A stretch of DNA of 64,000 nt from Aplysia californica. Its lineage: Eukaryota. Below the pieces are notes generated by a model. The model saw only the letters and a list, made by a program, of their open reading frames with translations. It made no database searches and was not told the origin of the DNA. A program made the translations under genes and the position numbers. This document shows positions 3,001 through 63,530 of this stretch, piece after piece. Numbering within the stretch: position 1 is the stretch's first letter; every line of letters starts with the position of its first letter. The stretch covers positions 156,080 to 220,079 of the forward strand of contig NW_004797872.1 in assembly GCF_000002075.1 (NCBI RefSeq), read 5' to 3'.

Positions 3001-4885
3001 GGGATTTTTTGTTGGTATATAGCGCAATACTTATTACTTTGAGGACATTTTGATTACTTATGATTTCGTCGGTTGAAGGTTTTCAGCAAATCTAAGATCA
3101 AAAGGGATCTGAACAATAGATTTGTCGTTTGAGAGTGCTCCCACACCGATGAGAAGATCCACGAGTTCACCGACGGCTTTGCCATTTTAGGCACTGCCAT
3201 AATACGAAGAAAATGCACCCATTACCCGTTGGTTAAGTTGTCAAAATACAGAAACCAAAAGGCGCACGAACTGAGAATGCAATATTGAGCAGGGAAGTAA
3301 CATGTTGATATTAGCCTACCGTCCGTAATACAAGCTATCCTCACACTTTACTCAGAATATATGACAGAAATAAGGAAATCGCTCAAGAAGCAATTAGAAT
3401 ATACTTTTTTCCATTTCTTGTTGCTGGCTGGGGGGGTTTTTTTTTTTTGGGGGGGGGGGAGGATGGGCATGGTGACAGATCAAAATATACCAGATTATAA
3501 ATAAGATAGAAACCTAGGAAACGTTCAGTGAATGTTTCATTTTTAATGGGTGTTTAACCACCCACATGGAACCCCGAGAGAGTTTTCTAAAGTGCGTTGG
3601 GATCACTGCTCTAGCTCTGATGCTCAAGTCGCTATCATAGAAATAGAACTGAATCACTTGAAAACACGTTGCACAACGTATTTCCATCCAATTCCCAAAG
3701 GGGAGAGACCTTCACAACAGATTCCATGTCAGTCCAATGTGAACTTGAACTTGAACCAAAGAGCAAGTGAGAATTGAAACAAATCCTTCTTTGCGATAAA
3801 GAGACGTCATTTGGCATTGGATTTATAGTATCTCCGACATTCCACAAATCGACAGCAGCCAAACTAGCTAAAGAGGGATTTCAACAAGCACAGCAACAAC
3901 ACCTTCAGCACCATGAAAAAGATCACCAGATCCAACAACAAACAGGACTGGCTAAACTGTTGCACGTTAGCTGTTGAATTATTCCAATAGACAGCAGCTC
4001 CAAACCTCACAGACAGTGCCGACTACCATCTTCTTTTGCCTGAGCTCAACAAGTCATTCTTAATCAGCACTTGCACCAAAGAGGACCTATATATAAGAAT
4101 CAGGGTGGCACATGTTTGGACACCTGGAAAAGAGTGTCAAATACCACTTGTTTGACTGCCATGCCCCAAAAGACCTCAGAGGTCAACCTTTTCCTTTGCA
4201 GTCACACACAACAGCAAATAGAGTGGAGTCCGCTTAAACCGAAATCTGTGGAACCCCCAGATTTCCTTTAGTTTAGCCACGTCTTTATGGCTTATAGAGG
4301 TTGTTCAAATGGAAGGAAAAACATTGGGGAATTTATTTCCTTTCAGTAAATTGCTCTGCTTTCAGATTAACACCATGTTCAAGTTAAGCGGACTCCACTG
4401 TATTATTTACGGGAAAACTCAAAACGGGCATTGTAGTGCTGATAGCAGAATATGTCAATGGGCTGAAGGACGAAAGTAAAAGCCACTGAGCTCCTTGATC
4501 ATTACAATCAATGCAAAAAAACTTTGAACCTTTTTCTACTTTCATCCCTCCCTCCCCCAAATTTTTTCTTGATAAACAAAAACGCACACAGAGTTTAAAA
4601 AAAGAAAGCAACTGCAGTAGTTTAAAAAGAGTTTGAAAGAAAGAAAACACAAGAGACAGGTAAATAAAGAATAAAAAGATCAAGAGTTTCATGCATGTTT
4701 TTCTCATGTTGGATGTGTCTGCTACCTTGATATGAAGGAAGTGTATTCATTGGTTAAGTTGTTAAATGCAAAGTAATTATAAAGCGTAACTGGACTGCGA
4801 ATATTGTGCTAGAGCAGCACAGCATAACATTCCTCTTCTTTTCACATTACAGATTATAAACATACTTGGGGGGGGGGGGATTGGT

Positions 4886-5380
4886 AAGTGTTTTATGGCG
4901 CTCCCAACTGCATAAGGTCATATGAGCGTGTGGGACACACCAAACTTTTTAGTTGGTAGGTAATTTTAAATTTTGCCTGGGTGGTGGCAGAAGCCTACTC
5001 TTATTGATTTTGGACCACCAAGGGATCTTTAACATGCCCAACTTGCACACGGGACCTCCAAGAGATTTTTCGCCCTTGTCCAAGAAGGCCAGGGGCAGAT
5101 CATACCGACCATAAGACCAGGAATGTTTGCTGAAAGACAACAGTAAAAAGGAGCCAAGGAGAAGCAGTAGAAAGGCGGCAGAAAGAGTCAGGAGCCCACA
5201 GGAGGGGGAAGAGGAGGCAAGGGGGTGGGGGCAGAAAGTGGAGATGAAAGCAGATGACAGAATATTGTTAGAGACCAGGAAAGGATGTGAAAGTAGAAAA
5301 TTTTCCGTCACTATCCGGATTCGAACCCGGAATTACTGAATGAGAGGCGAACACCTTAACCTCTAGGTCACTAGAGCCCC
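4886..5380 (-). mobile_element. tRNA-derived SINE family A (Meta-domain-like core), full length
   Basis: tRNA-like head with A and B boxes (GGTTCGAATCC), core gaggtcccgtgtg...gcatgttaaagatccc, 3' tail cgctcatatgaccttatgcagttg..agcgccataaaac. Homologous to 6037-6495, 51285-51620 and 57570-58080. Confidence 0.85.
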
Positions 5381-6495: not shown

Positions 6496-6734
6496 AATAT
6501 AGAAGCTGCAAGCCATTTCAAACTTTAAAAATAAAAAAGTAAACGCCTTCTAAGGACAAAATTTCAACTAGTTTTGCTCTTCATAGACTCAAATGTGACC
6601 TATTTGCTATTATCAAGGCAGTAGCTCTTGTAATTTCGCATTTTTTGGACATTCATAAATTCTTACTTGTAAAGCGGAGTTGAAGAGATTAAAACTGAAA
6701 GCCAAATGAAAACAAGAAGAAAATTATTATTTAC

Positions 6735-6929
6735 CTGTACCTCGGTTGCAACATCCACAGTTTCCCTAGGAACTTCGGATCTGAAACTTTTCCGCAGCAT
6801 CAAGTGATCAGGATCCCCTACCCATCCACCAATGCAGAAACGTGCTTTGTGTTTCTGCAGCAGGCTAGGGTTTGTGAATGTCATGCTACAATCATGACAT
6901 TTCCAGTTCATGGACATTATGTCCTCCAT
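6735..6929 (-). CDS. CCDC17: First coding exon of a CCDC17-like protein (N-terminal zinc-finger-like motif); downstream exons not located
   Basis: gccATGG start at 6929. Translation MEDIMSMNWKCHDCSMTFTNPSLLQKHKARFCIGG resembles the recalled CCDC17 N-terminus (CxxCxMxF...LLxxHxxRFCIG). Acceptor ttttccccag puts the exon start at 7013 and CAG|gtaaat the end at 6735. A probable non-coding exon 1 ends at 7909 (AG|gtacac). Confidence 0.7.
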
Positions 6930-8057
6930 GGCTGAATATTGCACTGTACTGGTACGAAATGGTTTTAAAGAAATGCGAAATCCTTTGCTTCTTATGAGCT
7001 ACATGTTTCTGATCTGGGGAAAAAAATGAAAAAATTAAATAAAGATACTTGTGCTACTGAGATCATAATGAAGGCATTTGAGGAGAAAGTAACATTGAGA
7101 GTGCATGGAGTTTAATATGAGTAATTTTTTTTCATAAGTAGGCCTATAATTTAATAGGTCATCTTTGTCTTTAGAAATTCACATAAAAAAACCTAAACAA
7201 TATATAATTTAATGTACTAAATTGTAAAACTCAGAAAATCTACAGAAGCTGTACCATTATATCCAAATGATGCCCTAATCCCGTAAGTCCTTAAAGCCAC
7301 ACCACCATATCAAGTGACTAACAAAACAAACCAGTTCGAATCAATTGGTTTTGGCTTTGCATTTATTCTTAAAAATCAGATTGTCGAAAAATGAAAGCCT
7401 TGTGCGAATGAAAAATAGGGAGGTGGAGGTGGGGGTGCAGTGATGCTTCCAAATGAACAACCCCCCTCCCCTCCCCCCAAAAACAACAAACTAACAAAGA
7501 AAAAAACAATAAGGGGAAATCTGATCTGCTGGAACCTCGGTTGATTTCTTTTAAAAATTAATTAGCAGGTGCCACTCAATGGCCAAGCACACTTGAGCTT
7601 CACTTTAGAAGATATAATGATCAGTAAATTAATTTAGTAGCCTACATAAATGATAAATAAAAAGTTTTCAGAATTCAATGTCCTAACCCTAATCTAAATT
7701 TAAAAGATCTAGAATCTAGGCCTATTATTACTATTATTAGTAGATCTATACTAGCCAAACGCCAAATAAAATACTTTTTATAATTTGTTATGATAAATGA
7801 AGTTCATTCTACGAAGGAGATGCAATTATAAAAGAGGCCCTGAACAAAAAAAATAAATATTTTCTAAATGAAAAAGAATAACAAAAAATATGAAAGGTTT
7901 AAGTGTACCTCTTAACTGTGTTAAATTTCTTTACTTGAAACGATGCCATCACTCCAGCACACCCCAGCCCCGACAAACACCTCAAACTTCTCACTTAAGA
8001 CTGCGCCATTGTGATCAAGCAAGAGTCATGTGAACACACCGCCCGCGTTCATTGGAT

Positions 8058-8302: not shown

Positions 8303-8671
8303 TTTACTGTTTGTCTTCATTTAAAAGTATAAGTTTGCTCTTAATAGTAGAACAAATTTACAATACTATAGCTCTCTTCTTTCAAATTGCAGTATAAATA
8401 TGGAAGAAAATACGATGATATGCTGACAAAATATTTAGTTTGTTTTTTTCAGAAAGATAAATGTTCTCATCGAGACAATGAATTTGCTTTTCCCTTCCAG
8501 CTTTTTAATCAGGTAGTCATATCATCTCATCTCAAGGGACTGCGGACTGCGGACTTTGTGAACCTGGGCCGATGACCACCGGCTTGCTGTGTGAAGATCA
8601 TCTCACAACTTTGCATAATAGGCCTGCATAAGAAATCTGTTTAAATTGCAGTCAATTTTAAACTGTATAAC

Positions 8672-11600
8672 ATGGAGGTGAGTATTTGCCATATCCTGCT
8701 ATCGTAAATGGAATCTCTCATCTGCCGAGGGCATTAAATTGCAGCTCATTCAGACTCAGACTCAAGTCTACTCAAGACTTTTTCGCCCTTATCTAAGACT
8801 TGGCCACCTCTATTCTCACCCGGGATGAGAATAGTGCAGGCTAGTCTTTTGGCTATTCTCACCCGGTGCGCGTTCACTGTTATAGCCTAGATCTAGATCT
8901 AGGCCAACAAATTTTGCGTTCACCCTAAACCACAGAATTCTACACTGTGATAACAGAAAAATTGTAGCCTACTAAAAGCGTACAATTTTGTATCATGTGG
9001 CATGTGGGCAGTGGAGAGAGAGAGAAAGAGACAGAGAGAGGAGTAGCGTGAGAACTTCCGGTCAAAACAAAATGGCGACCCGCGTAGTTCTGCTCGATTC
9101 GAAAAGTTAAATAGCCGTAGCATCTTTGTAGACAACCAAATTAATTTACTTTTGTGTTTTAACATCATTTTTTAACTTTGTTTTTGTCAATTTGATCGTC
9201 CACACTGATAGACAGTATTCAGAAAGAGACAGAGAGAGAGAGAGAGGGGAGGAGTAAATCTTGCGAGAACTTCCGGGCAAAACAAAATGGCGACCCGCGT
9301 AGTTCGGCTCGATTCGAACAGTGAAATAGCCATAGCATCTTTGAAGATGATCAAATTAGCTTACTTTTGTGCTATAACGTAATTTTTTCTTGGCTTTTAT
9401 CAATTTGATCATCCACACCGATAGACAGTATTCCAAAATGAGGAAAAGCAGGTCTTGTTTCGCACCGGATGAGAATAGCCTACGCTGGCAAGTCTCACCC
9501 GGGGTGAGAGGTAGATCGTTTTTCTATTCTCACCCCGGATGAGAATAGCCACTTCCCTAAGACTTAGGCTCACCACTGCCTGCTAGAGTAATATTACCAC
9601 TGGTTCGGTCAAAATTTGGACGAAAATAGTGTGTCGACTTTAAAGCTTTATATCTCCCAGATGTATCTGCCTTCCCCAAGAGGAAAACCGAAACTTGCTA
9701 CAGGAAGCCCTGTAATTTGATGAGCCCATAAATGCACTGTTTCAGCTTGTTCCCACATTATGAGATGACTATATTTGAGTTTGAGGCCCTAACACCTGTC
9801 ACTGACAGGGTGCGAACATGATGCCAGATGTATTTTCGTGTTCAGTCTCAATTTTTTTGTATTCTCATGGATTCGGGCTGTATTTTGGCATTTGGTCGTT
9901 TTCAATTATGATCACTTTTGTTTCTTTGCAAGCTTAATAACATGATTAATGCTTGTTATCAACCCTTTGACTTTGACACAATAATGATAGTGCGTCTAAA
10001 GTGGTTTTCACCATTTTTATAGCTATTTTAATGAGTATGTATCTGACTCACTCTACTACACTTCTTGGCCATTCTGCAGTCTACAGTACAGTGAGAAAAG
10101 AAAGTTTGCATTATAACAGAACTTGGTCCACATCAGCAGCGGGATTTTTAGCTAAAAAACAATGTTCGCTCTTTTTCCTGTACGTGGTAGGATAAGTATG
10201 AATGGCTTACGGTGAGCTTGTCCAAATAGAAATTGTATTCTTCCCATTGTCTGCTTTTTACTGATCGATCAGACACTGACAANNNNNNNNNNNNNNNNNN
10301 NNNNNNNNNNNNNNNNNNNNNNNNNNNNNNNNNNNNNNNNNNNNNNNNNNNNNNNNNNNNNNNNNNNNNNNNNNNNNNNNNNNNNNNNNNNNNNNNNNNN
10401 NNNNNNNNNNNNNNNNNNNNNNNNNNNNNNNNNNNNNNNNNNNNNNNNNNNNNNNNNNNNNNNNNNNNNNNNNNNNNNNNNNNNNNNNNNNNNNNNNNNN
10501 NNNNNNNNNNNNNNNNNNNNNNNNNNNNNNNNNNNNNNNNNNNNNNNNNNNNNNNNNNNNNNNNNNNNNNCAAACAAACAGACATACATAGACTCGCAGA
10601 AAGCAATAGAAAGAACACGACTACACCAGGGCGCCCGCCAATTCTAATAGTAGTTAGTAAGCCTATTGCCCTTTTGCTCACTTTCCAATTATGCACCACC
10701 TTATCTGCAACCCAAGCGACACCACTGGTGATGATGTAGAGTAGATTTAGATTTTCATCTAGATCTAGAGCTTGTTCATTCTCGTATGTCCTCGTTAAAA
10801 AAATTGTAGATTTTCTAGCTCATTTATTAATTTAGATCTAGAATCTAGACCTAGATTAGATGTAGACATTAGGATAAAGATAGAAAAGTTTTGAATTTGT
10901 AGATTGCAGAATGTATATGATGTTTTTACTTTTAAATGTAAAGAAATATGCTTTGATCATTTGGTGTGATATTTTTGAAAGCCAACAGATTTGTTTCGTT
11001 ATGATTTTCTTATTAACTTTTCTATGTTCTCTCTTTTAGGTTAACGTGGTTCACGCCAAGTCTGGGAAAGAACTGGCCGTCATTGCAGGGGTAAGAAATA
11101 GATAAAATTTGTGTAGGCTTGTCCACAATGATGTACCCTTGAAATTCTGATCTGTTTATTGTTTGATGCTTACTACTGGAGACCCTTTTCACTGAGAACT
11201 TTGGGTTGTTTATTGGCCAGTCATAGTTAAGTTTTATTAAAACTTTTGGTATTAGTATGTTTACATTGGGAGGGATGGGGTGTCAACGGAAATTTTAAAA
11301 AATAGTGAGTGGGGGGGAGGGGGATTGATCTGTATTGGCATGAAAGTGCTTTGTGGTTGAATGAATTTGAAAGTGAACAGAGCTGTGTCTGTAGAACATA
11401 TATAATTTCTCTTTGTTTTGAAGGACTTTTAATAATTAGTGTCATTGCTAACTAGCCCTTATACAGGGAATTCATGTGTCACACAGCTCATTGCCAGTGA
11501 CCTTTTCAATTTCCTCTTGTACTTTTTTGTTTGCAGCTGCATCCTAAGTCAACAATCTTGGATGTGAAAAATGGGCTCCGAAACATTCGTAAGTGTATTT

Positions 11601-14600
11601 GACCTTAAACGTATTGTTAAAAATATTTGTAAATTTGTTTTTCGAAAACTGAAATGGCCAGAGATGGGTTCTTGTTGCAGTCCTTAATTCTCACAGGCAA
11701 TTGTGGGTGATGTATGTCTTAGGTTAGCTTGAAAAATCCCCCTAGTGGGCAGATTTCTTTGACTAATGAACAGAGATAACCTTTATTTCTTTAAAATGAT
11801 TGTAAAAAAAAGCTGAATTCATGGAGATAACAGGGCTCGTCACTGTGAAGTGTTACCTAACTTTCTCTTCTTTTATGATAGCAGTGAACTCATAAAATCA
11901 ATATTTTTTTTAGAATGGCACCTTGTAGATGTACTTATTAGCTGACATGCCCTTTGTTGATTTTTAATATTTTCTTCCTTTTTCAAGTTTGATGATGTTT
12001 TATACTCCCTACAACAACACTATTTTCTGACAAATAAAAAGATTTTCTATCATGTATGCTGTTTAAATCCTGGACATGGTATGAGAGTTTTAACTGTACC
12101 CCCACATTTTTTTATACTCATTCCTTGATTTTAATCTCTTGAGCGTTTGATGGAATCATTTTTATGTATGCAGGGGGGGGGGGGGAGGAGCCGAAATAAA
12201 TTTCTTGTCGAGATATGTTTTCAGCATTTCTTGTTGCATTGTTTTTCAAGAAGATAGTCTTTTGTTGATCCTTAAGTAGATGTAGACCTGATGTCAACAT
12301 TTTGTTATTTTAAATTTTCAGAACCCAAGTACTATCCTGACCGCCAGTCCTATAAAGTTGATCCCCGTAAGTCATAAACATTTTGTACTTGTGTGTGGCA
12401 GCCCATCTTCTCAACATGAAATAGGGATATTAATTGAACATGTTTATGTGGCAAATATCCATATATGGTTTTCTTTTGTCTTTCATCTATCTGTTCTGTG
12501 TTATTACAGATCAATGAATAGTGACACTGTTAATCACCAAGGTGGTTGAAGAACCGTCTGGTAAAATTGTTTTTCTTTTTCTGTCTTATTTTGCCTCTTA
12601 GTCCTCACACTATTAAATTATTTATCATAAAAGCGTGTCCTAGCTCTGCAAAAGAACATCAATTTAAGAACTACCTTCTAGTCCAAATTCCAATATGCTT
12701 TTGTCCTGTTGTATTGTGCTTTACTGGCACTGGAACAGAAATGTGAAGGTATGGGGTTAGTGATTGATGTTAAAGTTGCTATGATTATCACTCCAACTGC
12801 TATCTCCTGTCCTCTTGGCTGCATTTTCCTAATTTACGTGTATTATCTGTACTATGGTTATGCTGAAGTTGTTTGTGTGTACCTAATTTTCAATAAACCT
12901 GAGTGTTCTTCCCTTGAATCAGAATGTCATATAAAAAAAACTTTTATAGTGGGTGGTTGGCGGGTGCTCTGGTGTGGTTTGCTTCTTCTTTCCTATGAGA
13001 CGTCTATCGTCCTTATCTCCCCTTCTTCTTTTTTATGTTTGTAACTCTCTTCTAACAGTAACACCTTTAATCTTCTGGCGCTCATATGATCTTATGCAGT
13101 TGCGAGCGCCGTAAAACTCTTACAAAAACGAAAAAAACTTTTATACTCTCTTTCATTAAATGTAAAGAAAAGATGTATCAAGTTTAGTTTTGTTAAAAAT
13201 GGAAAGTGGTTAGAAGGATTCAAATGGTGCACTAGACGAGCTAAGAGTACATGAAATGAGACTGAATCATGTTGGCAGTGATTGTGTCCTCTTGTCAAAG
13301 GTGATACAGTCAAACGTGTAGAACAGCCACCCATTGTCATGGAGAAAAGTTTGCCATTTAGACAGGACTGATCAAAATGAAGAAAGCAAATCATTCTCTT
13401 CTGAGGTCCAAACTGGGGCTGATCTCAGGATTGGGACTGCCATAAGGTGAATTCAAAGGGATTTTTGTTTTTTTTCAAAAAGGGGGGGTGTGTGATGTAA
13501 GATGGGTTTTTTGTTTTTGTTGGCTTTTTTTAAAATTAGCTTTCTTTTTATTACTGATTTTGTGCGAGGGTAAAATAAACAAAATATTATGCAAATGATG
13601 AAGGTCGAGTCCCATGGTAAAACAAACACATGGGTTGCCACCACTCTGAGAATGAAAAATGCTGCTGTCGCAAGTTCACACCAACCTGCATTATAACTTT
13701 GTTACAGATTAGGTAAACAAAACAGTGACCGGTCACCTCACACACAATTTGTGCATGAGTTACGGACGGAGCTTATAGGTTATGACGGATCACGCTTCCC
13801 ACACCAGCTGTTGAAAATTTATTGCTAGGCCTACCCATTGGTCAACTTGGGTAAACATTCATTGGAGGGACTAACATTAATGACAGGTGAATTAATTATG
13901 ACGGCCCGTCCACTGCGTGAGGGGCCGATTCAAAATTTATGAGAAAGCGTCGGGAAATGAGTGACCACGCCTGGCGGCCTGAGGCAGGTAAATATGACAG
14001 AAAGAGGGTTGATAAAATAAGGTGGCCGTGGCTGTGTTGGACAGGGGACCATTTGATTTTACACAATGAAATTATGTAGAAAAAACGCAAGGGGGAAACT
14101 GGAAAGTGGCCTTTTATACTGGTGGCCGTCGTGGCAGGTTCGACTGTAGTTGTGTCCGAGATGGCAGTGGTTGTAGGGGTGGCTATTGGTTACGTTTTCT
14201 ATGTTATTGTCATTCTCATAATCTGCTTTCATTTTTCCCTAATGTCAGGCGGAAAGATGGTAAAAGATGGAGACTCTTTAGAAAGTTTGGGTATTACTAA
14301 TGGAGGCAAACTCTACTTTAAGGACCTTGGGCCACAAGTTGGATGGACAACAGTAAGAAAACTTTTTTTTTTTAAAACTTATAACATACTGCTTTATATT
14401 TAGTTTGGTCATTGAGCGATGGTTGTAAGGTACCTCCTTCCATCTTTTTTCAAGGAACTAAAGATAAGAGTTGTGTAGACAATGTTTTACTTTATCTCAA
14501 ACATACAGTTCCCCTTGGTTGTCTGAAGATTGTTATCTTTGCATGTCTAATATAAACCCTGAAACACCTTTTTTTTTATTGAGCGGGATATTGGAATTTA

Positions 14601-17600
14601 ACCATCGGTGGATCTCATGTCTTTGTTTTCCTAAAGTAACCAGTGCCCTGTGAATGATACTCTGTTTTAAAGATCAAACTATGTCTGTATTCATCAGAAA
14701 TAAAAAGAAGGACATGATGACAAAGTATTATCTTTGAGAAAAGTCCTTTGATATTTAGTGTTTAATAACCAGCGATAATAATGCCAAGTTTCTCCTTCAC
14801 TATGTATAAAAGTATAAAAAGAAATCACCAGCAGTTACAGTCTATTTTCGCTTAGGTTTTATCACCGTTTGTGAGTGGTACCGTTGTTCAACTAGTTTTG
14901 TGTCATTGTTCTTGTTTTACAAGATGTCCAATTTCAGCTTATTATCCGATTCACCAGGTATTCCTGACAGAGTACGCGGGGCCTCTGGTGATCTACTTAA
15001 TATTTTATTCAAGACCTTCCCTGATCTACGGCGCAGGAGCTGCTTCCAAACCAATTGCTCAAGTGGTTCAGTAAGTGCCTCAGTTGTTGCTCTATGTATG
15101 ATGAAGTGGTTACTTTTAAGCACAAGGGGGCTGTCCCGAAAAATGCTGTTTTGAGAAAATAGAAGGTAAAGTTTTTGCCCCTTGTTCAGTTTCTTTAAAA
15201 GACAAGGAGAGTTTTCTCTATAACCAAACAAATATGCACACCAATGAAACCAGACTTCCCTACTTTTGGTGTAGGTCAAGATTTCTGGAAGCCCCTGAAA
15301 TCTGGGTTAGCCTGCTTGTCATTAAAAGCGACCAAGTAATCTTAGACTTATAAATGTTTAGTTCTTGTCAGTTTCTTTTAGTCTTCAGATGAAATGGTTA
15401 GGCTCAGAATTTGTTGTTTGTAAGTAAAAAGGAAAAGGTAAAAAAAAAAAAAGAAGCTAGGAAAACAGCACTACATAATAATACTCATTAGGACATTATT
15501 TATTTACTGGTTAGTTTCCCACACTTTGAGCTGTTTGGTTACAATTTGGTTAATTAATTATGTGCATATATTCAAATGAGTGCATAATCAAACATTTAAA
15601 ACCTTATTTGTCACATTTTTTAATTCGTCAGTTTGCAAACACAGATTTGTATACATCCACATGTAACAGAATGGACATATATATGTCTATTATGAAGCCA
15701 TATGTTGGCTTATTTTTAAAAGTAATTATGCATATTTAATTATTCATTTGCATATAATTAACAAAGTATTGAGACTACAACGTTAATTCTTTCATTTTTA
15801 ATTTTGTTGCCCTAAAAACATAAACTCACCTATTTTCAGCTCTTTTCTTTTATAAATATGAAAGTTCTGGTTTTTTCATGTTCTGGTACCGTTTATTCTT
15901 CTTTATTCTTCTATAGGAATTTCCTTCGAGATACCCACAATTTCTAACACGGACACAGCCATAGCTTTTTTATTTATGGACTGATTTTGTTTGAAAAAGT
16001 AAAGAGCATTTTACTTCTGGATTATTGATCTTTGTACCTGTGTTGTTTATACGTTAGTAGTACCCATCTTTAAAAAAGTTGTGATTTTGCTATATAGAAT
16101 ATTTAGCCATCTTACAATTTTTTGAATGACCAAGACATCAGTTACGTAACATTTGTCTCTGTCTTTTTCCTCAGTTTGGCTGCAGGATGCTGGACATTCC
16201 ATTATGCTAAACGTCTGTTGGAGACTATTTTTGTTCATCGTTTCTCCCATGCAACCATGCCTATTTCCAACATCTTCAAGGTAAAGGGAATTTTTATGCC
16301 TCCCCTTTTACATTTGTCTTACTGATGCCTAATTTTTTGCAATTCAACACTTCTAAATTTATCTTCATTTTTGCTTCATAGAAAGTTTTATGAGTTTGGG
16401 TATAATTTTTTTAGTCATGGAAAATTTTTTTTATGAAGTGGTTGTTATTTACAGTACAATATATTAATTTCAAGTTGTTTGCTGCCTTGAGAACTTACTC
16501 TGAGCTGCAGTTTTAAATTTAAGTGGAATGAGTACGAATTGACCTTTGCATGAACAATTTGAGGCTTCTGTTTAGGTTTGTCACTCTTTGTAAGTTACCA
16601 CTCCCTCTTGAAGTAAGCATTATACGAATAACCTTGTAGTAAATACAATTTGTATGTCCCCAGAATTCAATTTACTACTGGGGCTTTGCTGCCTTTGTGG
16701 CTTACTTTGTGAACCATCCTCTGTACACTCCGCCAGGTATGTGATTCTATATGGCTAGTGACAACTCAAAATAAAATGCTGCCTTTGTGGCTTACTTTGT
16801 GAACCATCCTCTGTACACTCCGCCAGGTATGTGATTCTATATGGCTAGTGACAACTCAAAATAAAATGCTGCCTTTGTGGCTTACTTTGTGAACCATCCC
16901 CTGTACACTCCGCCAGGTATGTGATTCTATATGGCTAGTGACAACTCAAAATAAAATGCTGCCTTTGTGGCTTACTTTGTGAACCATCCCCTGTACACTC
17001 CGCCAGGTATGTGATTCTATATGGCTAGTGACAACTCAAAATAAAATGCTGCCTTTGTGGCTTACTTTGTGAACCATCCCCTGTACACTCCGCCAGGTAT
17101 GTGATTCTATATGGCTAGTGACAACTCAAAATAAAATGCTGCCTTTGTAGCTTACTTTGTGAACCATCCCCTGTACACTCCGCCAGGTATGTGATTCTAT
17201 ATGGCTAGTGACAACTCAAAATAAAATGCTGCCTTTGTGGCTTACTTTGTGAACCATCCTCTGTACACTCCGCCAGGTATGTGATTCTATATGGCTAGTG
17301 ACAACTCAAAATAAAATGCTGCCTTTGTAGCTTACTTTGTGAACCATCCTCTGTACACTCCGCCAGGTATGTGATTCTATATGGCTAGTGACAACTCAAA
17401 ATAAAATGCTGCCTTTGTAGCTTACTTTGTGAACCATCCTCTGTACACTCCGCCAGGTATGTGATTCTATATGGCTAGTGACAACTCAAAATAAAATGCT
17501 GCCTTTGTAGCTTACTTTGTGAACCATCCTCTGTACACTCCGCCAGGTATGTGATTCTATATGGCTAGTGACAACTCAAAATAAAATGCTGCCTTTGTGG

Positions 17601-20600
17601 CTTACTTTGTGAACCATCCTCTGTACACTCCGCCAGGTATGTGATTCTATATGGCTAGTGACAACTCAAAATAAAATGCTGCCTTTGTAGCTTACTTTGT
17701 GAACCATCCTCTGTACACTCCGCCAGGTATGTGATTCTATATGGCTAGTTTTTCAACCTCACTGCGCGACTGTTTTTCTCGTATAAAATTTTACACATAT
17801 GCATTTATATTATATGTATAATACTTTGTTTTACGTACACACTTGTCGATTAATTTTTAAGATGTGATGTCTTTTTCATTGTAATGCGCAATGAGCATCT
17901 TTTAGGAAATGGAAATGCGCAGTATAAATGCTATTTATTATTGTTATTATTATTAGTGACAACTCAAAATAAAATGCTGCCTTTGTAGCTTACTTTGTGA
18001 ACTATCCTCTTTACACTCCGCCAGGTATGAGTTTCTATATGGCTAGTGACAACTCAAAATAAAACTTAAGACACGGTTTCTATCCGAGATATCAGCTTAG
18101 AAAAACTGCTGGGGTCAGATTAAGACTCGGCATATATGTTTTAGAAATGAGCCTAGAAAAACCATTGGGTTCAAACTGGCACTAAATAATGTTATAGGAT
18201 TTGTAGATGAATTTTTTTGTACAATAGTCGGATTTTGTAAACATGTCCCATTGAACTGTAGCGCTCACATGACCTTATGCAGTTGCGAGCTCCATAAAAA
18301 CTCTACTAAAACGAAAATAAAATTTAAAAAATGTTATTAATCTTAGAACTAAATATTTAAAGATGTTATTAATCTTAGAAGTAAATATTTTCCTCCACAG
18401 CACATGGAGATATGCAAATGTATGGTGGACTAGCAGCATTCATTGTAAGTAAACCATGTATTGCAGATTTGTCATTTTTATTTTGCAGCTTTTCTTTAAA
18501 AAGTTTTTGCTTTGAATGTTTCCCCATTTGTGGGCCCTCCTCTCCTTGTCACATTTTCATTTTTTACTGCATTTTCTTTTCTTGAAGTGGGTGGTTGGCG
18601 GGTGCTCTGGTGTGGTTTGCTCCTTCTTTCCTATGAAACATCTATCGTCCTTATCTCCCCTTCTTCTTTTTTGTTTGTTACTCTCTTGTAGCACCTCTAA
18701 TCTTCTGGCGCTCATATGACCTTATGCAGTTGCGAGTGCCATAAAACCTCTACTAAAACTAAAACTTTTCTTGAACCAACAAAAGCAATTGCTTTTCTCA
18801 TTTAAGAACACTTTTTTGAAGAATCATATTTACTTGATGACGACCAGGTTAAAGAAGGCTTAAATTGTTCCACAAAAGTCGTGAATTCTGCTGCTGCTGC
18901 AAGTTTTACTTTCTAGATTGTTCCCAGGTTGACTTTTTTCAGAAACCTGTTCGTTTTTGTATCATACAGCATTCTCATTTTGAGATTTTCTGAAAAATTA
19001 AAAGAAGTTAAATTGACACATTTTGTCAACTACTTTGAATCAAACAGACAGTGGGAGGGACGACATGTTGCCATTCAGTATGTTTGGATTGATGGTTGTT
19101 CTTTTTCTGCTATTCCAGCTGGCTGAGCTCGGTAACTTCTCAATCCACCTCGCTCTCCGAAATCTCAGGCCTGCAGGTAAATATTGTTTGTGTTCAGTGG
19201 AACATTTAGTAGAAGTTGGAAATGATTATCTGTATTGCAAATGACCATGCAATGGTGTATCAGAAATTGAGTGTGATATTTTTCTTTTTTTTTTCAAAAT
19301 GGAACAGATAAAACAGATAGATATTGTTTTTCAAAGGACTTATTTGTTAAATCTGATCCTTAATGAGAATAGGGTTTTTTTTTGGTCCCTTCAATCAAAA
19401 AATATCCAAAAATTTTGGCATTATAATTATTTAAAAGTGATTTCTATTTTCTGATTCTGATCGCTCAGCAATGTATTCAAAGTTGCTTTTAAAAAAATTA
19501 ATTTTGGTGATCATAAGGAAACCAGTAATGCTTTTTGTTTATGTTTGTAATGCTTATATTTGCATTCTTGAATACTGTGTGCGTAGGTGGTGTGTCCTTG
19601 CAAACATATCCATACGCCTCTCCCCCCCCCCACTCACACACACACTTTTTTTTTACAAATTTGATGAAAGAGCTTTTTTTTTTCATCATGCATTTGTGTT
19701 TAGACTTAATTTGTTCTTTCTTTCCTTCACTAATAGGATCAAAGGTGCGAAAAATTCCTTATGGTTCAGCTAATCCATTCACCTGGATCTTTGGCCTCGT
19801 GTCTTGCCCGAACTACACATATGAGTCTTTGGCTTGGATTGGATTCACCATCATGACACAATGTCTGCCAGGTAAGCATTTATGGCCTCTATTTTGTCAA
19901 CTGTTTTTTTTTTTGGGGGGGGGGGGGGTTCACTTTTTAATTTGTCCACGTATAGTACCTGTGAAGTAATCTGTCTTTTTTTGGCTTGACCTTTCAGGGA
20001 TATCTGATGTGGTTTATTCCGTCTCTTTTTTTCCTCTCAGAGCGATAGTTCCTTTACCCTTGTATCTGACTCTCACATGACCGTGTGTAGTGGTGATCGC
20101 TCCTTTCGTCTTTCAGCCTTCCTTGCTGTCCATTTTCTGCACTTGTGGTTGGTGGGCACTCTGGTGTGATTTGTTCCTTATTCGTCTTTTACATTCGTCA
20201 TCATCTGTTACTTAGCATTATCCACTCTCTGCAGTTTTCTACCATTAAGCTTAGAGTTTTCTGTTGCTGAGATACATCTTGGTTACAGTGGCATTGAACT
20301 CTTGTTAAATATTAAAGTTGCGTTGATTACATACTGTCTTGAGTGTGTGTGTTTCTCTGTTGTAAGCATATTGCCATCCTGGTGGGTGGTCTGGTGTGGT
20401 TTGCTTCGTCTTTCCTATCAAACACCTATCGTCCTTATCTCTCCTCCTCCTTTTTTGTGTTTGTTACTCTCTTGTAACACCTCTAATTTTCGGCACTTTT
20501 ATGACCTTATTGTGTTCCAAGTGCTGTAAAACACTTATTAAAACTAAAACTTAAATCATCAAGGACGAGTAAATTTGCAAGCATGAAGACGGCCTGTTTT

Positions 20601-21189
20601 GGCGTACTTAAATAAAAGATGCATTGTTTCATTATTCTTACTGATATTCAACTTCGTATTCTTTATCTGAAACTTTAAAAGGCAGGTAACAATAATATGC
20701 ATACAATAAAGTATTCAAATTCATGTTTCTGGTTTGTGTATGTTGAATTAAAATGTGTTGCAGCATTGCCATTGGTCCTCTGCTGATCGAATATGTCCAG
20801 CTACATCCTTAAAGAATTAATTAAGGCATGCCGTTATTCAAATTGCAAGTCTCTGGAACTAGGTGAGGGTTATACTTGTGTTCTAGACTTTTTGGTTATA
20901 GAGGTTGTTTGGAGTGATTTTTGAGAATCTTCTTTCTGTTCTGTCAGAGGTCATGTTTTGATTGAGATGATGCAACCCACGTATAGTTTACATAATGTTG
21001 AAAGGGGAAATTGAGAAGTTGACTGATGGTAATTTTTAAAAATTGGTTTGTTTTTTTCCAGCTGGACTTTTTTGCTTGGCCGGCAGCTACCAGATGTTGA
21101 TGTGGGCACGAGGCAAGCACCGCAACTACCTGAGGGAGTTCAAGAACTATCCTCGCTTCAGAAAGTCCATGATCCCTTTCTTGTTGTAG
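8672..21189 (+). CDS. TECR: Very-long-chain trans-2,3-enoyl-CoA reductase, 12 coding exons, 304 aa
   Basis: Exons 8672-8677, 11040-11090, 11537-11588, 12322-12366, 14249-14352, 14958-15070, 16175-16280, 16664-16736, 18401-18444, 19119-19176, 19737-19871, 21062-21189. All GT-AG, phases consistent, 915 nt. Motifs [77 protein letters not shown]. The 6-nt first exon (ATGGAG|gtgagt) is the least certain. Candidate AATAAA at about 22223. Confidence 0.96.
8802..9556. mobile_element. Non-autonomous DNA transposon, MULE/Mutator-like, in TECR intron 1
   Basis: 9-bp direct repeat CTAAGACTT at 8793-8801 and 9557-9565. GG...CC termini. Imperfect TIRs contain the palindrome CTATTCTCA-CCCGGGA-TGAGAATAG. 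Internal tandem duplication of about 215 bp (about 9015-9230 and 9230-9435). Confidence 0.7.
12949..13135 (+). mobile_element. Retroposon family B (about 180 bp); other copies at 18587-18765, 20380-20552 and 32610-33185 (split)
   Basis: gtgggtggttggcgggtgctctggtgtggtttgc...tatcgtccttatctcc... ending in the same 3' tail as family A. Confidence 0.75.
15121..15335 (+). repeat. Unclassified dispersed repeat (about 215-235 bp); second copy at 55353-55586
   Basis: cacaagggggct.tcc...aaatgctgtttt...accaaacaaatat.cacaccaatgaaacca...tttctggaa.ccc..gaaatctg shared by both copies. Confidence 0.75.
16687..18064 (+). repeat. 90-bp tandem array (13 units) made of the 3' 50 nt of TECR exon 8, its donor and 40 nt of intron
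   Basis: Units start at 16687, 16777, 16867, 16957, 17047, 17137, 17227, 17317, 17407, 17497, 17587, 17677 and, after an insertion, 17975. Unit: tgctgcctttgt(g/a)gcttactttgtgaaccatcc(t/c)ctgtacactccgccag|gtatgtgattctatatggctagtgacaactcaaaataaaa. Confidence 0.97.
17750..17957 (+). mobile_element. 5'-truncated L2/CR1-type retroposon 3' end inserted in array unit 12
   Basis: Ends in gtaatgcgcaatgagc...atgcgcagtataaatgctatttattattgttattatt, similar to the tail of the SINE at 61515-61859. TAGT on both sides, and the array resumes in register. Confidence 0.65.
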
Positions 21190-22359
21190 ATTTTTGCTAC
21201 TTTTGACAAATATTTTTCGGTCATGCCACTTTTCTGGATACTTACAGGAGTGTTCTTTCCTGTGTGAACGTCCTGGCTGTATTTTATAGGATGTTATACC
21301 AACAAGTCTTTTAGGGTTCAGTTTGATGAATTTCAGAATTCCTTTGATCTCTTGGGGACCCATCAGTGTTATTGTGGCATAATCCTACCATGATTTGCAA
21401 GGGATTTTTTTGTATCTTAGACTGCGGTTGAACACTTCGTCTTTGCCTTCATAGTTCAGCTCCATTCATGTATTTTCATGAGCATAGTCTTGTCAAGAGC
21501 AGCTGAGTCGAAAAACTGCATAGTAGCAGTTGCTGTGTTCAGGAAGGTTTTAAATTTCTCTTTTATTTTATTTTTGTTTTAAAATTTTTTATGAAGTTAT
21601 AACAAAAGGAATTAGCATATTATCTTTTCTATATTTTTGCATTTGATACAGACATCTTTGGCAGTGAAACCGTAAGCTAGTGATTCCTTAGTAAATCAAA
21701 TTGTATAAGGCATTGGTTCTTAAATCAAAGAATGGATGTTTAGCTTTGTTTCACTAAGAGTATTTGTGGACTCGCATAGAGTAAGCAGCCATAGATATTT
21801 GGATGACTTTGTCAATTATAGTAAGGGCTGTCAAGTATGTTGAATGGTGATTATGATGAGATATACATCACTAAGTTATAAGACAATGTTGCTATTTATA
21901 TTTTTGTGTGTAAGGAGAAAGTTGTTATTTGTGTTAACATGTTTTGTTTAATAACTCAAAAGTACTCATTTTACTACTTGCTGTAATCTTTTAGAGCAAT
22001 TGATGAACATTATGACATGTTTTTTCAGAAGTATTTTTGCTCATCCTTCCATTCTTCAGAGGTCAAACTGATACCTGAGTGAATGTTTGTGCATCTGTTC
22101 TAAGTTACTTGAAAAGATTTTTAATACGCTAGGGATTTTAATTTCTCTTTTTCACATCAGATTTCTGTTTTTTTGTTTTTTTCCTTCTTGTGGATGGAGT
22201 CGTTGAATGTTTTCATTCCCAGAATAAAGTTTTTCACAAATATTTTTTACAAAATGGGACTTTCTTTGTTTGGTAATGTTAAACTCTGGACTGAATATTG
22301 TCAGAAAACAGTATGTGACGTTTTCTTAGATTACTGTTGAAGCCTGGTATGTTTTTGTT

Positions 22360-57294: not shown

Positions 57295-57570
57295 GGACGC
57301 TCAATGTTAAAAACAATCAGGAAACGACAAATGCAGTTTTTGGGACACCTGAATAGACATAAGGGTCTTGAACCTCTAGCTCTCACTGGCAAAATTGAGG
57401 GCAAGCGAGGCAGGGGTAGGCCCAGAACAACATACTTAGGGAACCTAAACAAATGGGTAACAGGGAAAAATCAGGGAAACGTAGTTTTTCTGAGAGCATC
57501 CGAGCAAAGGAATGAATGGAAAATCATGATCGCCGATGTCTGTCGCAGATCTGGCACTGGATGATGATGA
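57295..57570 (+). mobile_element. RTE-type LINE 3' fragment; relatives at about 28350-28570 and 25975-26062
   Basis: [31 protein letters not shown]-terminal signature followed by a (GAT)n tail. Confidence 0.8.
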
Positions 57571-58080
57571 AGTGTTTTACGGCGCTCGCAACTGCATAAG
57601 GTCATATGAGCGCGCAGGACACGCCTAATATTTTCAGTTGGTAGGAAATTTTGAATTTTGCCCGGGTGGTGGCCGAAGCCTACTCTTATCCATTTTAGAC
57701 CACCAAGGGATCTTTAACGTGCGCAACTTGCACACGGGCCCTCCGAGATTTTTCGCCCTTGTCCGAGAGGGCTAGGTGTAGATCTTTCCTACCAGAAGAT
57801 CAGGGGTGTGGCAGAAAGACAGCAGTAGGAGGAGTCAAGGAGTAGCAGTAGAAAGGCTGCAGAAAGAGTCAGGAGCCCAGAGAAGGGGGCAAAGGAGGTG
57901 AGGGGGTGGGGGCAGAAAGTGGAAATGAAAGCAGACGACAGAACATTGCTAGAGAGCAGGAAAGGAGGTGAAAGTAGACAATTTCTAGAGAAGAACATTT
58001 TTCGGTCGCTACCTGGATTCGAACCCGGGACCTTTTGAATGAGAGGCCAACACCTTAACCTCTAGGCTACGAGAGCCCCC
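57570..58080 (-). mobile_element. SINE family A, full length
   Basis: A and B boxes, core ggcccgtgtgcaagttgcgcacgttaaagatccc, shared 3' tail. Abuts an RTE 3' end. Confidence 0.88.
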
Positions 58081-63039: not shown

Positions 63040-63530
63040 TCCCCCCCGGGCGGTGCTATTGACTGAAGTGTCTTTAGGCCATTCCCTAAGGAGGGACATT
63101 AACTTGTTTGTATGCGCAGTCTTGTTTGTAAATGGGCTGATTCATCGATGTCATGCTCTTGTTCGTATGCGCAGTAGAATTGTAAATGGGCTGATTCATC
63201 GATGTCATGCTCTTGTTCGTATGCGCAGTAGAATTGTAAATGGGCTGATTCATCGATGTCATGCTCATAACTGTGCCTGCTGCTTTTTCTTTCCGAATCC
63301 TTACTATCGTCATTTTCCTCTACTTCTTTTGTATGTTTGTCACACTCTTGTGACCCGCTATTTCCGGGATGCCTTGATAGTCGAAGCAGATTTTTTTGCT
63401 GTTGAAGCCAGAGAGTTGAGCAGAGTAAGTCTGATTCCCTGTAAGGACTTCTCTGTTGACATCCACCCCTTGGCGCTCATATGACCTTATGTAGTTGCGA
63501 GTGCCGTAAAACCTCTACTAAAACAAACAA
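63040..63530 (+). mobile_element. Retroposon family C copy with an internal approximately 3x 54-bp tandem repeat (about 63110-63270)
   Basis: Unit gtatgcgcagtagaattgtaaatgggctgattcatcgatgtcatgctcttgttc is repeated here but single in the other two family members. Confidence 0.8.

What the first reader, a model, noticed from the sequence alone, without database searches (positions are those of the whole stretch)
16687..18064. Thirteen near-identical 5' splice sites compete at TECR exon 8, and extension to any downstream one is a poison choice
Seen: twelve units repeat CCAG|GTATGT with the same 50-nt exonic context, and unit 13 has CCAG|GTATGA. Reading through the first donor gives GGT ATG TGA, so extending exon 8 to any later donor introduces a premature stop. 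Known: such transcripts are typical NMD substrates. Inference: array copy number could tune TECR output and hence very-long-chain fatty acid elongation. The locus is also a natural test of how exon definition chooses among identical donors.
Basis: partly seen in the sequence, partly recalled or inferred. Interest (0 to 1): 0.7.

Follow-up and report, generated by a model that had tools for sequence, protein, structure and literature searches.

The report
Splice-donor minisatellite in sea-slug TECR
In the sea-slug gene for the fatty-acid-elongation enzyme TECR, the end of exon 8 with its splice signal is repeated 13 times head to tail; the one full-length transcript contig uses the first signal, so the extra copies are likely mostly silent, as in similar repeats already studied in human and lancelet genes.

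Summary
In detail: 13 copies of a 90-bp unit (last 50 nt of exon 8 plus 40 nt of intron) in a 12-exon, 304-aa TECR gene identical to a named Aplysia californica protein; read-through gives GGT ATG TGA and a 185-aa stub. The array is real (two DNA-type runs carry it) and likely length-variable (about 5 versus 10-11 copies by contig depth; rough). The gap before unit 13 is a 204-nt retroposon-like 3' end inserted in unit 12. 'Competition' is not shown: one unbranched 2055-nt RNA contig joins exon 8 at donor 1 to exon 9. A second RNA run holds unspliced array sequence of unknown origin, so minor leak is not excluded. This is a known kind: human F7, LMNB2, PDGFA (first donor only), CBS, 6-16 (two extra donors used), amphioxus 'mirages'; the F7 work already did the proposed test. 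This scan noted the kind before on other DNA (46 notes, at least 24 genomes). One twist: every junction is also acceptor-like, so mis-splicing might be repaired by re-splicing, not poisonous (about 8%). Interest low.

The parts
8672..21189 (+). TECR coding span, 12 exons, 304 aa
   Evidence: identical to P0001; Pfam Steroid_dh on exons 11 and 12 above cut-off, TECR_N on exon 5 below cut-off
16175..16280 (+). exon 7
   Evidence: joint to exon 8 (GT..AG, 383 skipped) in X14 and X15
16664..16736 (+). exon 8 (73 nt); its last 50 nt are the exon part of unit 1; encodes the conserved NHPxxT motif
   Evidence: N176, H177, P178, T181 invariant in 23 of 23 aligned homologues
16687..17749 (+). 90-bp array, units 1 to 12 (50 nt exon end + donor + 40 nt intron); donors at 16737+90k
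   Evidence: present in runs X1, X2, X14
16734..16742 (+). donor 1 (CAG|GTATGT), the one joined to exon 9
   Evidence: X15 contig leaves at 16736 into exon 9
16742..16744 (+). in-frame TGA met by any read-through of donor 1
16770..16775 (+). first of 13 AATAAA in the array (one per unit); inside the array each is followed by U/G-rich exon-derived sequence
   Evidence: use as a poly(A) signal not tested
16794..16826 (+). acceptor-like end of unit 2 (branch-point-like CTTAC at -33, 75% pyrimidine but only 25% T, CAG); the same in the following units
   Evidence: use as an acceptor not tested
17750..17953 (+). 204-nt 3' end of a young high-copy repeat with an (ATT)n tail, between TAGT copies at 17746-17749 and 17954-17957; likely a 5'-truncated retroposon inserted in unit 12
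   Evidence: 40 of 40 scored matches, the 39 others 97-98% alike, of 1182 candidates; 7 of 7 other copies looked at extend upstream with shared sequence; TAGT copies
17954..17974 (+). remainder of unit 12 after the insertion
   Evidence: 100% to unit positions 70-90
17975..18064 (+). unit 13, 94% to unit 1; donor at 18025 (CAG|GTATGA); abuts unique intron
18401..18444 (+). exon 9
   Evidence: its first 30 letters are the loose end of X15's contig

Best explanation
This is a young minisatellite whose first unit spans the exon 8/intron 8 border of the TECR gene; the full-length transcript contig splices at the first donor, and the 12 downstream donors are likely mostly silent passengers removed with the intron. 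Shown: the 13 units, the stop on read-through, the array in two DNA-type runs, donor 1 joined to exon 9 in one RNA contig. Inferred: (1) a 90-bp tandem duplication started the array and slippage or unequal crossing-over keeps changing it (depth ratios about 5 in X1 and 10-11 in X2; different unit types in X1, X14, X15); (2) unit 13, at the edge and cut off by the insertion, escapes homogenisation; (3) donor 1 wins because it is nearest the exon 8 acceptor (73-nt exon against 163 nt or more) and is made first, the mechanism shown for human F7; (4) rare extended forms would carry a stop 82 nt or more before the next joint and would be decayed, which makes the array cheap to tolerate, not a control device.
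For: X15: one 2055-nt contig, no other letters, exon 6 tail - exon 7 - exon 8 - exon 9; length fits the canonical mRNA to 22229, AATAAA at 22223. Database protein identical to the donor-1 model. Predicted accessibility of the 9-nt donor is equally low (0.004 or less) for 13 of 13 donors, so local folding does not set donor 1 apart, which leaves position. The intron part of units 1-11 has no variant and both exon-part variants are synonymous; X14's spliced exon 8 carries one other letter, read from the contig limits as the -17 change that the reference has only in units 3-6 (inference), as expected if variants move between the coding unit and its copies. Precedent: F7 (37 bp, mutational proof), LMNB2 (100 bp x 10-15) and PDGFA (81 bp x 16-18) use only the first donor (PMC1557585); amphioxus mirages splice normally, vary in length and leave edge units out of homogenisation (PMC3087553). 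One genomic match only for the exon 11 peptide, so heavy loss of transcript would likely be selected against (inference).
Against: RNA evidence is thin: 2 of 6 RNA-type or unknown runs laid gave spliced contigs, and only 1 spans exon 8 to exon 9. X14 holds a 113-nt array contig that reads through a donor at depth 12.6 beside an exon 7-8 contig at 11.7: about 1.1 unit passes per spliced molecule, which fits 10-20% unspliced RNA or DNA spread over 5-11 units but also real extension. Contigs drop rare forms and decayed forms are under-counted. In CBS and 6-16 two extra donors are used (as cited in PMC1557585). The scanning rule was shown in mammalian cells, not molluscs. Depth of contigs is no copy number by the tool's own warning.
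Confidence: 0.74

Rival explanations
1. Leaky donors as a dosage dial: a real share of transcripts uses donors 2-13, is decayed, and longer alleles give less TECR.
For: Donors 2-12 are identical to donor 1 over 17 nt or more upstream and 23 nt or more downstream; the stop lies 82 nt or more before the next joint; X14 holds array RNA or DNA at depth like the exon contig; copy number likely differs between X1 and X2; CBS and 6-16 use extra donors, and the title of a cited paper links the CBS repeat to lower enzyme activity (papers not read).
Against: X15's contig is unbranched through donor 1; no contig joining an intronic unit tail through the exon part to exon 9 could be seen; LMNB2 and PDGFA, the cases with unit length nearest 90, use only the first donor.
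Confidence: 0.12
2. Self-correcting array: each CCAG|GT junction can act as acceptor as well as donor. Donor 1 spliced to junction j would rebuild an identical donor on a shorter array (a ratchet), and an exon extended to donor j could be trimmed by splicing donor 1 to the CAG now abutting exon 9 (intron of 90 to 1288 nt), giving the normal mRNA. Extension would then not be poison.
For: Junction has CAG, 75% pyrimidine (higher than 5 of 11 true acceptors; 13 of 229 decoy YAG reach it) and CTTAC at -33; repair introns 90 nt or longer. Duplicated AG|GT segments were spliced at 15.9% and 5.9% in two human cell lines (PMC3265369). The end product is the normal mRNA, so X15 does not exclude it.
Against: The tract is C-rich: 25% T, below 11 of 11 true acceptors of this gene; the branch-point motif is common (124 of 229 decoys). 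The features are set by conserved codons, not shaped for splicing. The exon junction complex blocks such rebuilt splice sites in flies and mammals (PMC8184009). No read shows it.
Confidence: 0.07
3. Intronic polyadenylation: the repeat places exon-derived U/G-rich sequence right behind each AATAAA, making up to 11 poly(A)-like sites that end the transcript early (185-aa product, not decayed), more so on long alleles.
For: Each inner unit has TGTA 48 nt before AATAAA and U/G-rich sequence after it; unit 13's AATAAA lacks that downstream context. One sense read over a whole unit in poly(A) run X22.
Against: AATAAA occurs in about 8% of 90-nt stretches here by chance; every site has a U1 site 34 nt upstream, and U1 binding suppresses nearby cleavage (recalled); one read proves nothing and A-rich priming explains it; X15 runs to the normal 3' end.
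Confidence: 0.05
4. Assembly artefact: one unit wrongly multiplied.
For: Near-identical units are hard for short reads; the window has N stretches elsewhere, whose origin cannot be told.
Against: Four unit types in a non-random order; X2's loop contig is 9.9-11.5 times flank depth and X1's unit contigs 4.1-5.4 times; X1 shows the same 40- and 51-nt variant contigs that a multi-unit array predicts. The exact count of 12 may still be off.
Confidence: 0.02

Closest known systems
Human F7 intron 7 37-bp VNTR (Borensztajn et al. 2006, PMC1557585; read: abstract, introduction, discussion, passages)
   Same: First unit spans the exon/intron border; identical donors repeated into the intron; length varies; first donor used.
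   Different: Unit is 90 bp with 50 nt of exon (F7: 37 bp with 4 nt of exon); 13 copies against 5-9; here every extension carries the same early stop, while F7's fifth and sixth sites would not; each junction here is also acceptor-like.
Human LMNB2 (100 bp x 10-15) and PDGFA intron 4 (81 bp x 16-18) minisatellites (seen only as cited in PMC1557585)
   Same: Nearly the same unit length and copy number; only the true donor reported as used.
   Different: Different genes and phylum; no insertion splitting a unit is mentioned in what I saw.
Human CBS intron 13 31-bp VNTR and interferon-inducible 6-16 minisatellite (seen only as cited in PMC1557585; PMC306954 not held)
   Different: Use of extra donors is documented there and not shown here; shorter unit in CBS.
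Amphioxus 'mirage' repeats, Adh3, BflGb6, BflGb9 (PMC3087553; read: abstract and passages of section 16)
   Same: Invertebrate tandem copies of an exon/intron border; normal splicing; haplotypes differ in copy number; edge unit left out of homogenisation; Rogers-type intron-gain idea raised.
   Different: Mollusc; donor side with 13 copies; a retroposon-like piece marks the edge of the homogenised block.
Intron birth by duplication of an AG|GT segment (Rogers model; Hellsten et al. 2011, PMC3265369; read: part 1 of 4)
   Same: A duplicated segment holds CAG|GT with pyrimidines and a branch-point-like motif upstream, so donor-to-copy splicing is possible in principle.
   Different: There the duplication is inside an exon and must be spliced; here it lies in an existing intron, so such splicing would be optional and leave no trace in mRNA.

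Membership tests
Exon/intron-border minisatellite (F7-type VNTR, 'mirage') | Head-to-tail array of 10-160 bp units | tested here: met
   period 90, 11.8 copies plus a 13th unit
Exon/intron-border minisatellite (F7-type VNTR, 'mirage') | First unit spans a real exon/intron border, so the splice signal is repeated | tested here: met
   exon 8 ends at 16736 in X15's contig and in the 304-aa model
Exon/intron-border minisatellite (F7-type VNTR, 'mirage') | Copy number varies between alleles or individuals | tested here: inconclusive
   depth ratios 4.1-5.4 (X1) against 9.9-11.5 (X2); points to variation, but contig depth is no copy number; no long reads
Exon/intron-border minisatellite (F7-type VNTR, 'mirage') | Normal mRNA is made from the border unit | tested here: met
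   1 of 1 contig spanning exon 8 to exon 9 uses donor 1
Exon/intron-border minisatellite (F7-type VNTR, 'mirage') | Concerted evolution inside, diverged edge unit | tested here: met
   units 1-12 are 97.8-100% alike, unit 13 94.4%
Regulated poison splicing (AS-NMD) | Alternative form carries a stop more than 50-55 nt before a later joint | tested here: met
   82-1280 nt
Regulated poison splicing (AS-NMD) | The poison form is made at measurable level and rises when decay is blocked | tested here: inconclusive
   no extended joint seen; X14's array contig cannot be phased; no decay-block data
Regulated poison splicing (AS-NMD) | Conserved across species or under regulation | not testable with these tools
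   no relatives' genomes held; near-identical units argue for youth
Recursive splice site (ratchet point) | AG|GT with upstream pyrimidine tract and branch point | tested here: inconclusive
   CAG|GT, 75% pyrimidine, CTTAC at -33, but 25% T, below all 11 true acceptors
Recursive splice site (ratchet point) | Lariats or intermediates show use as an acceptor | not testable with these tools
   intermediates would match a shorter allele; needs lariat or long nascent reads
TECR / steroid 5-alpha-reductase family | N-terminal ubiquitin-like domain and C-terminal PF02544 domain | tested here: met
   P0001 carries PF21696 and PF02544 and equals the window model; exons 11 and 12 pass the PF02544 cut-off

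The most novel reading that the evidence does not exclude
The array is a self-correcting splice ratchet: each unit junction serves as both donor and acceptor, so wrong donor choices are re-spliced to the same normal mRNA, and a length-variable run of 13 would-be poison donors costs an essential single-copy gene nothing. This would be a natural, polymorphic case of recursive splicing born from a minisatellite and a general reason why donor-side repeats ending in CAG|GT are tolerated.
Probability: 0.08. Interest if true: 0.62.

Novelty: new member of a known kind. Interest (0 to 1): 0.24.

Why it matters
Modestly. It adds a mollusc case, in a gene with one genomic match, to a known class, with likely natural alleles of different length in a common laboratory animal, so one could ask whether first-donor choice holds outside mammals. 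The retroposon-like insertion gives a marker for the order of events in the array. If re-splicing repair or a dosage effect were shown it would matter more, but nothing here shows either.

Tried and rejected
No RNA holder was on record in the run search; 8 of 24 listed runs were laid. Raw poly(A) runs X21, X22, X23 gave 0, 2 and 0 reads on 16120-16800: no test. X13 gave none. X14 had no contig over intron 7 while it had one over the array; a part without cover is no evidence, and a 5- to 11-fold repeat lifts background over the assembly threshold. Only a stretch with one unit was laid, so the insertion, unit 13 and joints from later donors were not seen directly. X1's contigs lack the breaks that the reference allele's insertion and unit 13 would force (56 nt unbroken over 16721-16776 against three pieces predicted), which hints at an allele without them, but X2's loop is unbroken too, so graph cleaning can erase such breaks: not claimed. 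A hairpin over the donor is predicted but is no better than shuffles (z -0.09 to -1.41, 4 of 4 folds) and covers donor 1 as well. Synonymous-only variation (3 of 4 exon-part sites; chance per site 0.26-0.35) is too few sites to show selection. In-frame coding use of units was rejected: all three frames of a unit hold stops. Exon 10 was mis-parsed and fixed; the decoy count was wrong for that reason and was redone. Paper searches gave no report of copy-number-tuned decay or of re-splicing in such arrays; 'Aplysia' with 'TECR' gave 3 papers, seen as listings only, none about this locus by title. PMC10078293 (passages) added nothing direct. No supplements were read; subscription papers are not searched, so absence from print is not shown.
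Full report
The observation. Tandem Repeats Finder gives one 90-bp array at 16687-17749, 11.8 copies, 99% matches. Thirteen CCAG|GTATG sites lie at 16737+90k (k=0..11) and 18025. Units 1-12 differ only at -38 (G/A) and -17 (T/C); unit 13 has four more changes, one of which turns His to Tyr in the exon frame, and reads GTATGA. The host gene has 12 exons, 11 of 11 introns GT-AG, and gives 304 aa, letter for letter the database protein P0001 that its source names very-long-chain enoyl-CoA reductase of Aplysia californica. A search of the genome with the exon 11 peptide found one match, and the unit was found at this locus only (7 of 7 matches; such counts are lower bounds). Any extension of exon 8 meets TGA at 16742-16744 and gives 185 aa, losing the parts that match PF02544 positions 76-150; the stop lies 82 to 1280 nt before the exon 8/9 joint.

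The gap before unit 13 is a 204-nt insertion (17750-17953) between two TAGT copies; without it unit 12 is whole. It is the 3' end of a young repeat: 40 of 40 scored candidates match (of 1182 found), the 39 elsewhere at 97-98%, and 7 of 7 other copies inspected run on upstream with shared sequence and end in ATT repeats. I read it as a 5'-truncated retroposon (inference; the family was not identified). Unit 13, beyond it, has drifted, while units 1-12 stay nearly identical: the usual pattern of a homogenised block with an excluded edge, also reported for amphioxus mirages (PMC3087553, passages).

Is it real and variable? I laid 8 of 24 listed runs on 16120-16800, a stretch with one unit. In X2 the unit is one 120-nt loop contig at depth 209.7 against flanks of 18-21, a ratio of 9.9-11.5; X2 may be the assembly's own source, as the tool cautions for the best holders, so it is not independent. 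In X1 (another study) unit contigs stand at 4.1-5.4 times the flank, including an invariant stretch where the reference allele predicts 11-12; 8 of its 10 contigs were displayed. The tool warns that contig depth is no copy number, so 'about 5 against 10-11' is a rough inference, but a one-unit artefact is excluded. Unit types differ too: X15's exon 8 equals the reference, X14's has one other letter and its array contig two.

Which donor is used? X15 holds one 2055-nt contig with the exon 6/7 and 7/8 joints that leaves the stretch at 16736 into the first 30 letters of exon 9. Its remaining length ends at 22229, just past AATAAA at 22223: the whole canonical mRNA, unbranched at donor 1. X14 is spliced at exon 6/7 and 7/8 but breaks at the exon end and holds a 113-nt array contig at depth 12.6 beside 11.7 for exon 7-8. 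That is about 1.1 unit passes per spliced molecule; it fits 10-20% unspliced RNA or DNA over 5-11 units, and it fits real extension; contigs cannot phase across a 50-nt repeat. This is the main result against my reading. The three raw-read runs gave 2 reads in all.

Mechanism. Donors 2-12 have the same sequence and the same predicted (low) accessibility as donor 1; the hairpin over them is no better than shuffles. What differs is position: donor 1 closes a 73-nt exon, donor 2 one of 163 nt, and donor 1 is transcribed first. For human F7, 50 constructs showed that downstream copies work when the upstream one is disabled but do not compete with it (PMC1557585: abstract, introduction, discussion). 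The same paper cites LMNB2 (100 bp x 10-15) and PDGFA (81 bp x 16-18) as first-donor-only, and CBS and 6-16 as using two extra donors (those papers were not read, PMC306954 was not held). I therefore put 0.74 on a tolerated minisatellite with mostly silent copies and decay of rare errors (decay in this animal is assumed, not shown), 0.12 on a real leak with a dosage effect.

Two further routes. First, each junction is acceptor-like: CAG, 75% pyrimidine (13 of 229 decoy YAG reach this; 5 of 11 true acceptors fall below), CTTAC at -33. Splicing donor 1 to a unit's CAG would rebuild the same donor, and an extended exon could be trimmed to the normal mRNA through a 90-1288 nt intron. Duplicated AG|GT segments do splice at 6-16% in human cells (PMC3265369, part 1 of 4). 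Against it: only 25% T, below 11 of 11 true acceptors; the branch motif is in 124 of 229 decoys; the sequence is fixed by conserved codons; and the exon junction complex blocks rebuilt sites (PMC8184009, abstract and section 9). Second, each unit has AATAAA with U/G-rich sequence behind it, a possible early poly(A) site; chance per 90 nt is about 8%, and there is no evidence of use.

Novelty. The arrangement is a known kind, the proposed experiment has been done in F7, and this scan has 46 notes of the kind in at least 24 genomes, among them an octopus and a mussel (unchecked AI notes, 8 shown, used only as a lead to the amphioxus paper). Nine paper searches found no report on this locus or of re-splicing repair in such arrays; the library lacks most subscription papers and no supplements were read. 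Verdict: observation confirmed, interpretation partly supported, new member of a known kind, interest 0.24; boldest open reading, a self-correcting splice ratchet, 0.08 likely and 0.62 if true.

Noticed in passing
window 17750-17953; L008-L014: 3' end of a young, abundant repeat (1182 candidates in the genome, best copies 97-98% alike, ATT tail); other copies extend upstream, so a longer element exists; family not identified.
   Followed up: partly
window 12946-13135, 18586-18764, 20380-20549; tails at 18261-18317, 4881-4928, 30743-30805, 57570-57613, 63471-63530: A second dispersed repeat of about 190 nt occurs three times nearly whole inside TECR introns (80-88% alike), with shorter pieces elsewhere in the window.
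   Followed up: no
window 9021-9433: Two tandem copies of about 205 nt (84% alike) in TECR intron 1, each with AAAATGGCG and CTTCCGG motifs that recall YY1 and ETS promoter sites (recalled).
   Followed up: no
window 6700-8040 (- strand) and 8572-8677 (+): A neighbouring gene appears to start head to head with TECR within about 600 nt (exon-like stretches on the - strand); a shared promoter is possible. TECR exon 1 holds only two codons.
   Followed up: no
window 63103-63266: 54-bp tandem repeat, 3 copies, 94%; no splice-border link looked for beyond reading it.
   Followed up: no
window 16687-16736: The duplicated exon part encodes the conserved NHPLYTPP motif; a human TECR disease change, P182L, lies in this motif (recalled, not checked). 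The unit 13 change His to Tyr hits a residue invariant in 23 of 23 homologues, a sign that unit 13 is not read as exon.
   Followed up: partly
window 16344-16614: Run X1 differs from the reference in intron 7 by three letters and a 4-nt deletion; X2 is heterozygous at four places in 16530-16580: markers for phasing array alleles.
   Followed up: no
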